NCBI RefSeq assembly: GCF_000091665.1
Contig: NC_000909.1
Coordinates: forward strand, 1,279,460 to 1,311,459
Source: Methanocaldococcus jannaschii DSM 2661
Lineage (GTDB): Archaea > AGJL01 > Methanococci > Methanococcales > Methanocaldococcaceae
DNA length: 32,000 bases
Direction: 5' to 3'
Part shown: positions 11,665 through 22,537 of the stretch, one piece after another
Layout of the letters: each line of letters starts with the position of its first letter
How positions within the stretch are numbered: position 1 is the stretch's first letter
Made by a program: the position numbers and the translations under genes
Notes under the pieces: model-generated
What the model was told of the DNA's origin: nothing
The model's input: the letters and a program-made list of their open reading frames with translations, nothing else
The model's database searches: none

Positions 11665-12049
<385 letters not shown>

Positions 12050-12058
12050 TAGGGAAAA

Positions 12059-12072
12059 GGAAATTACATTCC
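12059..12072 (-). promoter_or_regulatory. NrpR-type nitrogen operator GGAA-N6-TTCC upstream of glnK-amt
   Basis: The perfect palindrome ggaaattacattcc lies about 55 nt upstream of the glnK ATG and about 25-30 nt downstream of a TATA-like TTTTTATAC (minus strand, plus coordinates about 12089-12097). Confidence 0.7.
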
Positions 12073-13429: not shown

Positions 13430-13450
13430 GGAAGTAGGAAACTTACTTCC
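13430..13450 (+). promoter_or_regulatory. NrpR-type nitrogen operator at glnA (GGAA-N6-TTCC nested in a longer palindrome)
   Basis: ggaaacttacttcc (13437-13450) is a perfect GGAA-N6-TTCC. The extended palindrome ggaagta...tacttcc (13430-13436 / 13444-13450) directly abuts the TATA box. Confidence 0.75.
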
Positions 13451-20464: not shown

Positions 20465-21553
20465 TTATTTCCAAGGTCTTGCTATAACAGGCATTCCAGC
20501 GTCAGGCATCCAAACTCTATCTAAGTCAGGGCAGATTCTTCTTATAGCAGATTCTTCACTTGAAATAAATATCATATCATCCTTTTCAGCTGCAATTAAT
20601 GGTCTTAACTTAATTCTATCTGTTAAACCAAACATTGTTGTGTCTTTCTCAATATCTCCATTCATAAAGATTAAACCTTGAGGAGTTCCAACTGCTATTG
20701 CGAAAGGACCATTTAGCATAGCTCCTCCATAAGCCAATCTTATTGCTGTATGTAACTCTCTCTCTTCCTCTGGCATCTTATCTATTTCATCCCAAAATCT
20801 TGGTGCTAAAGCAGATAAGGCATACTCAACAGGGATTTTGTGTTTTCTCATCAATAAATCTAATATATAGGCAACAACTTCAGTATCGGTTAATAATCTA
20901 CACTTATAACCAAACATTTCAACAAATCTTTTGTTTGTTCCATAGCTTGTTATCTCTCCATTATGCACTACACTCCAATTTAATAAATTGAATGGGTGAG
21001 CTCCTCCCCACCATGCTCTTGTGTTTGTTGGATATCTTGCATGTGCTAACCACATATAACCTTCATATTTATCTATTCTATAGAATTTAGCAACCTCATC
21101 AGGCCATCCTACTGCCTTAAAAACACCTAAATCCTTACCACTTGAAATGACAAAAGCTCCATCTATTTTGTCATTAATCTCCATAACTATATCTACGACA
21201 ACATCTTCCTCTCTATCAGCAAATTTTTCATCAACTTCATAAAAGTATCTCCAAGGAATTTGTGTTTTTTCTATAATGCCATCTTCTGTTGGTATTTCCT
21301 CATCTTTAACTATTGTCCCATACTGCTCTAAGACATTCTCAACCTCTACCTTTATTTTCTCAAACTTTGGTGTGTTGTCAATTAAAATGTGGAATGCATA
21401 GCAATCTTTATACTTTGTTGGATATATTCCATAACCTACATAACCAGAACCCTTCCCATTACCTCTCTCTTTTAGACTATCTAACGCTAACGCTATCTTA
21501 TCCCCTTTTATCATTCTTTTTTTTCTACTCATAAAACCGATAATACCACACAT
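20465..21553 (-). CDS. Glutamate synthase glutamine amidotransferase (class II, Ntn) domain protein
   Basis: MCGIIG at the N-terminus. The Ntn mechanism needs Cys directly after the initiator Met, so ATG 21553 is the start rather than the track TTG at 21559. [10 protein letters not shown] and HNGEI are class II GATase motifs. GGAGGG lies upstream. Confidence 0.9.
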
Positions 21554-21730
21554 GAACAACCCTCCGTAGAGATATAAAAGAGATAGTTTTTTGGGTTTTC
21601 TAAATATTGGTTGAAGTTATATTTAAATAATTATGGTCTGAGACTTATGATTTGGAATATTACAATATATAAAATAATTTAATTTTAAAATAGAATAACT
21701 AAAATAAAATATTTAAACTAAAATTAAAAA

Positions 21731-22492
21731 TTAAATCTCTGGTGTTGGAGGTAAAGTTCTCTTATGCTCATTCTTTTTAATTAAATCAAACACATAGTTA
21801 ATAGTTTCCAATGGAATGTTTGTCTCTTTATGAATCTCCTCTGGAGTTTTGCCCTTCTCATAAAGCTTTAATATCGTATCTAAAGTTTCATACTTAATGT
21901 CAAGCTCCTCTTCATCTGTCTGTCCTTCCCAAAGCCCTGCTGATGGTGGTTTTTCAATAATTTCCTTTGGAACACCAATATATTTAGCAAGTTTTTTAAC
22001 CTCTGTTTTAAATAAATTGCCTATTGGTCTTATATCACAAGCAATGTCTCCATGTTTTGTTCCATATCCAACATAAATCTCAGATTTATTGGAAGTTCCA
22101 GCAACTAATAAATTATATTTATTTGCAAAGTAATAGAGGATGCACATCCTAATCCTTGCCTTTAAATTTCCATCCGCTATCTTATCAAACTCTCTCGTTG
22201 GGACATAACCTCCAGCACCAAATGCCTTTAAGATATCTGTTATATCTGAGATAATATACTTTATTCCTAAATTCTCAGCAACCATCTTTGCATGTTCAAC
22301 ATCTTTTGGATTTGTATTCTTCTCTGGCATTATTAAGCCGAGAACTTTATCTTTTCCAAGTGCCTTAACACATAAATAAGCTGTAACAGAAGAATCAATA
22401 CCCCCACTTAATCCAACAACAACTCCATTGGCATTGGCTTCTTCAACCTTCTCCCTGATAAATTTTGTAATCTTATTAACTATCTCTTCCAT
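21731..22492 (-). CDS. nadE: NH3-dependent NAD+ synthetase
   Basis: PP-loop GLSGGIDSSV, family body YGTKHGD, and C-terminal KR..P. GGTGA lies 4 nt before ATG 22492. Confidence 0.9.
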   Translation of the reverse strand: MEEIVNKITKFIREKVEEANANGVVVGLSGGIDSSVTAYLCVKALGKDKVLGLIMPEKNTNPKDVEHAKMVAENLGIKYIISDITDILKAFGAGGYVPTREFDKIADGNLKARIRMCILYYFANKYNLLVAGTSNKSEIYVGYGTKHGDIACDIRPIGNLFKTEVKKLAKYIGVPKEIIEKPPSAGLWEGQTDEEELDIKYETLDTILKLYEKGKTPEEIHKETNIPLETINYVFDLIKKNEHKRTLPPTPEI

Positions 22493-22512
22493 ACTCTCAC
22501 CCCATAACATTA

Positions 22513-22526
22513 GGAAATATGATTCC
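22513..22526 (-). promoter_or_regulatory. NrpR-type nitrogen operator GGAA-N6-TTCC in the nadE promoter
   Basis: The perfect palindrome ggaaatatgattcc lies 2 nt downstream of the TATA box and 20 nt upstream of the nadE ATG. Confidence 0.65.
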
Positions 22527-22528
22527 TA

Positions 22529-22537
22529 TTATATAAA
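22529..22537 (-). promoter_or_regulatory. nadE TATA box
   Basis: The minus strand reads TTTATATAA, a near-consensus archaeal TATA, 12 nt after the fdhA stop and about 40 nt before the nadE ATG. Confidence 0.55.

What the first reader, a model, noticed from the sequence alone, without database searches (positions are those of the whole stretch)
22513..22537. nadE has its own TATA box immediately followed by a perfect nitrogen (NrpR-type) operator
- On the minus strand the order is TTTATATAA, a 2-nt gap, GGAATCATATTTCC (GGAA-N6-TTCC), the GGTGA RBS, then the nadE ATG. All of this fits in the 57-nt gap after fdhA.
- GGAA-N6-TTCC is the established operator of the methanococcal nitrogen repressor NrpR, known at nif, glnA and amt/glnK promoters.
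- I do not recall NH3-dependent NAD synthetase being part of that regulon.
- My rough hand estimate of chance occurrence is about 0.3 sites per 32 kb at this base composition.
- I saw three perfect sites. All three are in promoter position, just downstream of a TATA box, at ammonia-related genes.
Basis: partly seen in the sequence, partly recalled or inferred. Interest (0 to 1): 0.6.

Follow-up and report, generated by a model that had tools for sequence, protein, structure and literature searches.

The report
Nitrogen-repressor site on nadE promoter
A perfect binding site for NrpR, the known nitrogen repressor of methanogens, sits just after the TATA box of the ammonia-dependent NAD synthetase gene of Methanocaldococcus jannaschii and is kept in five close relatives, so the gene is probably turned up when nitrogen is scarce, a modest new addition to a known regulon.

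Summary
On the minus strand, a perfect TTTATATAA box (22537-22529) is followed after 2 nt by GGAATCATATTTCC (22526-22513). A GGTGA ribosome site and the nadE ATG (22492) come next, all within the 57-nt gap after fdhA. The window is M. jannaschii, and nadE is MJ1352, published as strictly ammonia-dependent.

- **Chance:** the window holds five perfect GGAA-N6-TTCC sites, not three, against 0.79 expected. Two lie inside genes.
- **Regulator:** the genome encodes NrpR (MJ0159).
- **Positive control:** all 37 glnA promoters found in the 40 Methanococcales genomes searched carry the same motif after their TATA box.
- **Conservation:** six of 38 nadE promoters (M. jannaschii plus five congeners) share the module TTTATATA, 3-9 nt, operator, 14-20 nt, ATG. 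All eight defined bases are invariant, while nearby intergenic DNA is 36% identical and the flanking genes differ.
- **Limits:** other congeners that encode NrpR lack the site, as do 80 distant nadE loci.

Most likely this is a lineage-specific NrpR operator that makes nadE nitrogen-regulated. No held paper links NrpR and nadE. Earlier scan notes report NrpR operators on other DNA, but not this one. Verdict: new member of a known kind, of moderate interest.

The parts
22529..22537 (-). TATA box TTTATATAA of the nadE promoter (8-mer TTTATATA at 22537-22530)
   Evidence: It has 0 mismatches to TTTATATA and is 100% identical in all six operator-bearing genomes.
22513..22526 (.). Perfect palindromic NrpR-type operator GGAA-N6-TTCC (minus strand GGAATCATATTTCC)
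   Evidence: It is conserved at -28 to -34 from the nadE ATG in six genomes. Five of the six versions are letter-identical to glnA operators elsewhere in the order.
22505..22511 (-). Predicted transcription start zone (inferred only)
   Evidence: Inference from the usual archaeal geometry, with the TATA box centred about 26 nt upstream of the start. No TSS data could be obtained.
22497..22501 (-). Shine-Dalgarno GGTGA
   Evidence: GGTG is conserved in the alignment.
21731..22492 (-). nadE (MJ1352), a single-domain NH3-dependent NAD+ synthetase of 253 aa
   Evidence: TIGR00552 at 335 bits and NF010587 at 333 bits. The enzyme was assayed as ammonia-only in PMC3376133.
22550..24610 (-). Upstream selenocysteine fdhA, with its stop at 22552-22550. 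No T5 run lies between it and nadE.
   Evidence: and the sequence.
21695..21730 (-). T-rich tract (T5, T4, T4, T4) straight after the nadE stop, a likely archaeal terminator
   Evidence: Sequence. Its function is inferred.
20465..21552 (-). First glutamate synthase gene (Ntn amidotransferase domain, starting MCGI). It has its own TATA-like boxes at about 21610-21670 and no operator.
   Evidence: No site with 1 mismatch or fewer lies between 20425 and 22513.
13437..13450 (.). Operator at the glnA promoter (reference site in the same window)
   Evidence: It is conserved in all 37 glnA promoters found in the order.
12059..12072 (.). Operator at the glnK-amt promoter (reference site). A second, 1-mismatch site lies at 12036-12049.

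Best explanation
The palindrome is a functional operator for the 2-oxoglutarate-sensing nitrogen repressor NrpR (MJ0159), placed between the TATA box and the transcription start of a dedicated nadE promoter. When ammonia is plentiful and 2-oxoglutarate is low, NrpR would bind at roughly -18 to -5 and block RNA polymerase recruitment or promoter opening. Under nitrogen limitation, 2-oxoglutarate would release NrpR and nadE would be derepressed together with glnA and amt/glnK. The likely benefit is that NadE here can use only free ammonia, so more enzyme offsets a low ammonia pool. Three things are shown: the sequence anatomy, the presence of the regulator, and the conservation of the site. Three things are inferred: NrpR binding, the transcription start and the physiological effect.
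For: 1. The site is a perfect GGAA-N6-TTCC lying 2-3 nt after a perfect TTTATATA and 20 nt before the ATG.
2. The window holds 5 sites against 0.79 expected. The genome holds 48, against 14-33 for same-composition control palindromes. Nine are intergenic against 3.5 expected, P=0.01. With 265 intergenic perfect TTTATATA boxes, about 0.06 chance pairings of a box with an operator are expected per genome.
3. The intergenic, TATA-proximal sites include the canonical nitrogen genes of this genome: glnA, glnK-amt and the divergent amt/glnK pair.
4. All 37 glnA promoters found in the 40 Methanococcales genomes searched carry the motif after a conserved BRE/TATA.
5. NrpR is present with a wHTH and two NRD domains, and matches PDB 3NEK.
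6. Six genomes share the nadE module. Mean pairwise identity is 1.00 for the TATA box and 0.92 for the operator, with all 8 defined bases invariant. It is 0.36 for the 30 nt upstream of the TATA box and 0.72 at nadE third codon positions.
7. The flanking genes differ among these six: fdhA, FrhB-like or MobB upstream, and GOGAT, DUF2254, sucD or pyrD downstream. The module therefore stays with nadE.
8. Five of the six nadE operators are identical to glnA operators elsewhere in the order.
9. MJ1352 is strictly ammonia-dependent (PMC3376133).
10. The NrpR consensus and its mode of action are published (PMC2723118; PMC4902934). The same TATA-plus-operator reasoning is used for Methanocaldococcus nif operons (PMC8809328).
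Against: There are no binding, transcription-start or expression data for this promoter. The site is absent from 32 of 38 Methanococcales nadE loci, including congeners that encode NrpR (G005, G009, G011, G016). It is also absent from 80 distant nadE loci. M. maripaludis nadE is not in the published regulon. The six genomes are close kin, five of them in one clade, so the conservation is not six independent observations. The intergenic excess of the bare motif is only about 2.6-fold. The 2-3 nt spacing from the TATA box in M. jannaschii is shorter than the 5-9 nt seen in the relatives and at glnA.
Confidence: 0.7

Rival explanations
1. The palindrome is not an NrpR site. It is a chance AT-rich inverted repeat, kept only because it overlaps core promoter or 5'-UTR sequence needed for nadE expression.
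For: Perfect sites do occur by chance: 39 of the 48 genomic sites lie inside coding sequence, and one of these, in a helicase gene, even follows a perfect TTTATATA. The bare motif is only about 2.6-fold enriched in intergenic DNA. The conserving genomes are close kin.
Against: The variation falls only in the N6 spacer. The eight defined bases never vary, while sequence on both sides changes and gains or loses bases. G011 keeps the TATA box and the SD but has replaced the palindrome, so the palindrome is not needed for a working promoter. The chance of a perfect site in this 57-nt gap is about 1e-3. Five of the versions equal bona fide glnA operators.
Confidence: 0.1
2. NrpR binds here, but the main consequence is not control of nadE initiation. 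The bound repressor acts as a roadblock to read-through from fdhA, or the promoter chiefly drives the downstream glutamate synthase genes by read-through past nadE.
For: No T5 terminator lies between fdhA and nadE. In G000, G006 and G011 the glutamate synthase genes follow nadE on the same strand and have no operator of their own. An earlier scan note, unchecked here, reports an NrpR operator on a GOGAT promoter in another archaeon.
Against: Presence of the operator does not track either neighbour. G001, G013, G014 and G002 have the operator without GOGAT downstream. G011 has GOGAT downstream without the operator. G006 and G002 have the operator without fdhA upstream. A run of T tracts follows the nadE stop, and GOGAT has its own TATA-like boxes.
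Confidence: 0.1
3. The site is bound by a different, unknown regulator that recognises a similar dyad, so the signal it responds to is not nitrogen status.
For: Three other TATA-proximal perfect sites lie upstream of genes with no obvious nitrogen role: a DUF531 gene, a YedE-like fragment next to selD, and an ORF-free gap.
Against: The motif is exactly the published NrpR consensus. It is universal at glnA in the order. No second candidate regulator was identified.
Confidence: 0.05

Closest known systems
NrpR operators of Methanococcus maripaludis (nif, glnA, glnK-amtB, two mod operons, the alanine symporter MMP1511)
   Same: The consensus GGAAN6TTCC is identical, the site lies in the promoter just after the TATA box, and the repressor family is the same (PMC2723118; PMC4902934).
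   Different: The target gene, nadE, is not on the published regulon list, and M. maripaludis-type genomes have no operator at nadE. The site here is a single operator, unusually close to the TATA box (2-3 nt).
TATA box plus NrpR operator ahead of the nif operons of Methanocaldococcus sp. FS406-22
   Same: Same genus and same promoter architecture. The assignment there also rests on inference from sequence (PMC8809328).
   Different: Those operons encode nitrogen fixation. Here the target is a cofactor-synthesis enzyme in a non-diazotroph.
[quoted passage not shown]
   Same: [quoted passage not shown]
   Different: It is post-translational, works by protein-protein contact, is bacterial, and acts on the two-domain glutamine-dependent enzyme. 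In that study the single-domain isoform was not bound.
glnA promoter of the same genome (window 13437-13450)
   Same: One perfect operator lies between the TATA box and the SD, and it is conserved across species.
   Different: The glnA operator is universal in the order, in all 37 glnA promoters found. The nadE operator is present in 6 of 38.

Membership tests
NrpR nitrogen operator / NrpR regulon | Inverted repeat GGAA-N6-TTCC | tested here: met
   Perfect match at 22513-22526.
NrpR nitrogen operator / NrpR regulon | Located in an archaeal promoter, between the TATA box and the coding start, or overlapping the start site | tested here: met
   A perfect TTTATATA lies 3 nt upstream and the ATG 20 nt downstream. 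The start site itself is only predicted.
NrpR nitrogen operator / NrpR regulon | Cognate NrpR (wHTH plus NRD domains) encoded in the genome | tested here: met
   A 542-aa ORF matches PF08461 and PF01995 (twice) and is identical to PDB 3NEK, MJ0159. NrpR is present in 12 of 12 high-quality congeners.
NrpR nitrogen operator / NrpR regulon | The same motif at the canonical targets (glnA, amt/glnK) of the same organism | tested here: met
   All 37 glnA promoters found across the order carry it.
NrpR nitrogen operator / NrpR regulon | Site conserved at orthologous promoters | tested here: inconclusive
   It is conserved in 6 of 38 genomes, with invariant half-sites and variable flanks. It is absent from the other 32, and from 80 distant loci.
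NrpR nitrogen operator / NrpR regulon | NrpR binding in vitro, relieved by 2-oxoglutarate | not testable with these tools
   Needs EMSA or footprinting with MJ0159.
NrpR nitrogen operator / NrpR regulon | Nitrogen-dependent, NrpR-dependent transcription of the target | not testable with these tools
No M. jannaschii nitrogen transcriptome was found.
Single-domain (type N) NH3-dependent NAD+ synthetase NadE | Match to the NadE equivalog models above their cut-offs, with no glutaminase domain | tested here: met
   TIGR00552 scores 335 bits (cut-off 63.65) and NF010587 scores 333 bits (cut-off 255). The protein is 253 aa.
Single-domain (type N) NH3-dependent NAD+ synthetase NadE | Uses ammonia but not glutamine as amide donor | not testable with these tools
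   A published assay of recombinant MJ1352 found robust activity with ammonia and none with glutamine (PMC3376133).

The most novel reading that the evidence does not exclude
[quoted passage not shown] The TATA-operator-nadE module would be ancestral to much of the genus and later lost whenever nadE was captured by other operons. This would be regulatory, in-vivo-style evidence that single-domain archaeal NadE depends on the free ammonia pool, a question that De Ingeniis et al. 2012 left open.
Probability: 0.6. Interest if true: 0.45.

Novelty: new member of a known kind. Interest (0 to 1): 0.35.

Why it matters
If true, it extends the NrpR regulon beyond nitrogen uptake and assimilation to cofactor biosynthesis. 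It also links NAD homeostasis to nitrogen status in an archaeon. De Ingeniis et al. 2012 left open which nitrogen donor single-domain NAD synthetases use in vivo. Co-regulation of nadE with ammonia scavenging genes would support free ammonia as that donor. The patchy distribution gives natural controls for studying how archaeal regulons gain and lose members: G011 has the same promoter without the operator, and other congeners carry nadE inside other operons. The claim can be tested with the genetic systems published for M. jannaschii and strain FS406-22.

Tried and rejected
The M. jannaschii TSS study (Smollett et al. 2017) is not held under its DOI or its PMC id. No Methanocaldococcus nitrogen transcriptome was found. 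The supplements of the M. thermolithotrophicus diazotrophy study do not mention NAD synthase.
2. I tested whether the operator really serves the glutamate synthase genes downstream, and rejected this as the main reading. Operator presence does not track GOGAT linkage, T tracts follow nadE, and GOGAT has its own TATA-like boxes and no operator.
3. I tested whether the operator belongs to the 3' end of fdhA, and rejected it. Two operator-bearing genomes have other genes upstream.
4. I looked for a wider NrpR-nadE link. There were 0 operators within 600 nt upstream of 80 distant nadE loci. Five Dehalococcoidia genomes with NadE homologues all encode NrpR, but the one contig I fetched did not hold nadE or any operator, so I dropped this line.
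5. Rfam finds nothing at the site.
6. An RNA hairpin role is unlikely. The stem is only 4 bp, and the predicted start lies at or beyond the 3' arm.
7. Literature searches for NrpR together with nadE or NAD synthetase found nothing relevant. Kessler and Leigh 1999 is not held. Subscription papers by Lie and Leigh could not be checked for lists of M. jannaschii operators.

Full report
**Identity of the window.** The window is G000:C1:1279460-1311459 of a 1,739,927-bp genome in three contigs of 1,664,970, 58,407 and 16,550 bp. From my own knowledge these are the sizes of the Methanocaldococcus jannaschii DSM 2661 chromosome and its two extrachromosomal elements. The genome's NrpR is identical to PDB 3NEK, 'nitrogen repressor-like protein MJ0159'. 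The gene at 21731-22492 (minus strand) is a single-domain NAD+ synthase: TIGR00552 scores 335 bits and NF010587 scores 333 bits. The gene upstream is formate dehydrogenase alpha. De Ingeniis et al. 2012 expressed this very gene, MJ1352, and found robust NAD synthetase activity with ammonia and none with glutamine (PMC3376133).

**The observation.** Reading the minus strand gives, in order:
- the fdhA stop TAA (22552-22550);
- TTTATATAA (22537-22529);
- TA;
- GGAATCATATTTCC (22526-22513);
- GGTGA (22501-22497);
- ATG (22492).

The intergenic gap is 57 nt. The window has five perfect GGAA-N6-TTCC sites, not three. The two extra sites are inside the methionine aminopeptidase and amt coding sequences. 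The expectation from dinucleotide shuffles is 0.79, and none of 100 shuffles reached five.

**Is it more than chance?**
- Genome-wide there are 48 perfect sites, against 21 for the reversed control pattern and 14-33 for the five other palindromes of the same composition.
- Nine sites are intergenic. A first-order Markov model of intergenic DNA expects 3.5 (P=0.01). The bare motif is therefore only modestly enriched, and 39 sites in coding DNA look like chance.
- Position and neighbouring genes discriminate better. The intergenic sites just downstream of a TATA-like box belong to glnA, glnK-amt, the divergent second amt/glnK pair and nadE. Three more sit at genes of unclear role, and a further intergenic site not counted here is CRISPR-repeat-like.
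- The genome has 265 intergenic perfect TTTATATA boxes and a per-position probability of 1.8e-5 for the motif. About 0.06 pairings of a perfect box with a perfect operator are expected by chance.
- The chance of a perfect site anywhere in this 57-nt gap is about 1e-3.

**Positive control.** I recovered glnA from 37 of the 40 species-representative Methanococcales genomes searched. Every one carries a perfect GGAA-N6-TTCC a few bases after a conserved CCGTAAATTATATATA-type BRE/TATA. This shows the motif is the working nitrogen operator across the order, including every genome that lacks it at nadE. Xia et al. 2009 give GGAAN6TTCC as the NrpR consensus. They list the M. maripaludis intergenic sites as nif, glnK-amtB, glnA, two mod operons and an alanine symporter, and nadE is not among them (PMC2723118). 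NrpR with a wHTH and two NRD domains is encoded in this genome and in all 12 high-quality genomes of the genus.

**Conservation at nadE.**
- nadE was found in 38 of 40 genomes of the order.
- Six of them (G000 and the congeners G006, G001, G013, G014 and G002) have a perfect operator 28-34 nt before the ATG.
- All six share the layout: perfect TTTATATA, 3-9 nt, operator, 14-20 nt including GGTG, ATG.
- Mean pairwise identity is 1.00 for the TATA box and 0.92 for the operator. All differences fall at two positions of the N6 spacer, and the eight defined bases are invariant.
- By comparison, identity is 0.36 for the 30 nt upstream of the TATA box and 0.72 at nadE third codon positions.
- Five of the six operator versions are letter-identical to glnA operators used elsewhere in the order.
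- The neighbouring genes differ. Upstream is fdhA in four genomes, an FrhB-like gene in G006 and a MobB-like gene in G002. Downstream are the glutamate synthase genes in G000 and G006, a DUF2254 protein in G001, an unidentified 426-aa ORF in G014, sucD in G013 and pyrD in G002.

The TATA-operator-SD module has thus stayed attached to nadE through rearrangements. This argues that it serves nadE, and not fdhA or the glutamate synthase genes.

**Limits of the conservation.**
- The other 32 genomes have no perfect site within 1.5 kb on either side of nadE.
- In G005, G009 and G010, nadE lies close behind a potassium-channel/TrkA-like gene.
- In G011 the TATA box and SD remain but the palindrome is replaced.
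- On a NadE+GlnA tree, five operator genomes form one clade. G002 groups with operator-less G011 on an early branch, so at least two changes are needed. Because the G002 module aligns base for base with the others, an ancestral module with later losses seems likelier than two gains. This is inference, the tree includes nadE itself, and the kin are not independent.
- Eighty distant nadE loci, archaeal and bacterial, have no operator in the 600 nt upstream.

The feature is therefore lineage-specific.

**Mechanism.** In M. maripaludis, NrpR binds the operators when ammonia is plentiful and is released by 2-oxoglutarate when nitrogen is short (PMC4902934). Here the TATA 8-mer is centred near 22533/22534. 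The usual archaeal spacing of about 26 nt puts the start at roughly 22505-22511 and the operator at about -18 to -5. A bound NrpR would then hinder polymerase recruitment or promoter opening. In the relatives the operator lies 5-9 nt after the TATA box and would reach the start site itself. The start site, the binding and the nitrogen response are all inferred. The physiological logic is that NadE can use only free ammonia, so derepressing it together with the ammonia scavenging genes compensates for a low ammonia pool.

**Alternatives.**
- Control of glutamate synthase by read-through is not supported as the main role. T5/T4 tracts follow the nadE stop, the first glutamate synthase gene has its own TATA-like boxes, and no operator with one mismatch or fewer lies between the two genes. 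Operator presence also does not follow GOGAT linkage.
- A roadblock effect on read-through from fdhA cannot be excluded, since no strong T tract separates the two genes.
- No Rfam family matches the site.

**Novelty.** Full-text searches for NrpR with nadE or NAD synthetase found nothing relevant. A link between nitrogen status and NAD synthetase is known in bacteria, but as PII-NadE2 protein contact (PMC7646526). Earlier notes of this scan report NrpR operators on other genomes and nadE next to bacterial nrpR genes. Those are unchecked leads. I confirmed only that five Dehalococcoidia genomes with NadE homologues encode NrpR. I class the finding as a new member of a known kind: a credible, lineage-restricted addition to the NrpR regulon, of moderate interest and readily testable.

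Noticed in passing
L002:3085-3098 (G000:C1:215084-215097): A perfect operator, GGAAACATATTTCC on the minus strand, abuts a TATTTAAATA box 15 nt before the ATG of a 169-aa DUF531 gene. That gene lies upstream of the A/V-type ATPase subunit I gene. It is a possible further NrpR target of unknown function.
   Followed up: partly
L003:3240-3257 (G000:C1:855739-855756): Two overlapping perfect operators form an 18-nt palindrome, GGAAGGAACTTTCCTTCC, in an ORF-free gap of about 850 nt, with a TATA-like box about 20 nt upstream. This could be the promoter of a nitrogen-regulated small RNA or small ORF. Rfam finds nothing there.
   Followed up: partly
L004:3071-3084 (G000:C1:1562570-1562583): CTTTTATAA is followed directly by a perfect operator. 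A 105-aa YedE/sulfur-transport-like ORF starts 181 nt downstream, and selD follows it.
   Followed up: partly
window 12036-12072: The glnK-amt promoter has a second, 1-mismatch operator (12036-12049) 9 nt from the perfect one (12059-12072). The perfect site lies about 18 nt after the TATA box, a two-operator layout unlike glnA and nadE.
   Followed up: no
window 13430-13450 and L047-L061: In Methanocaldococcus glnA promoters the canonical operator is nested in a longer dyad, GGAAGTA-N7-TACTTCC, which gives a second GGAA...TTCC register. The BRE/TATA CCGTAAATTATATATA is almost invariant across the order.
   Followed up: no
L001:2842-2855 (G000:C1:58841-58854): A single perfect operator lies between the divergent second amt gene and a P-II gene. 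TATA-like boxes flank it on both strands, which suggests one site shared by two promoters.
   Followed up: partly
L005:3245-3258 (G000:C1:1575744-1575757): This perfect site is part of a repeated unit (...AAGACCGTTTCGGAATGGAAAT...) in an ORF-free region. It looks like a CRISPR repeat and not an operator.
   Followed up: no
L164:2028-2041 (G000:C1:1361427-1361440): A perfect TTTATATA, 2 nt, then a perfect GGAA-N6-TTCC lie inside an 808-aa Hel308-like helicase gene. This is a reminder that the pairing can occur in coding DNA, or it may mark an internal promoter.
   Followed up: partly
L013, L014, L016 (G005, G009, G010): In these congeners nadE sits 1-51 nt behind a potassium-channel/TrkA-like gene and has a different N-terminus (MNN...). 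It seems to have lost its own promoter.
   Followed up: partly
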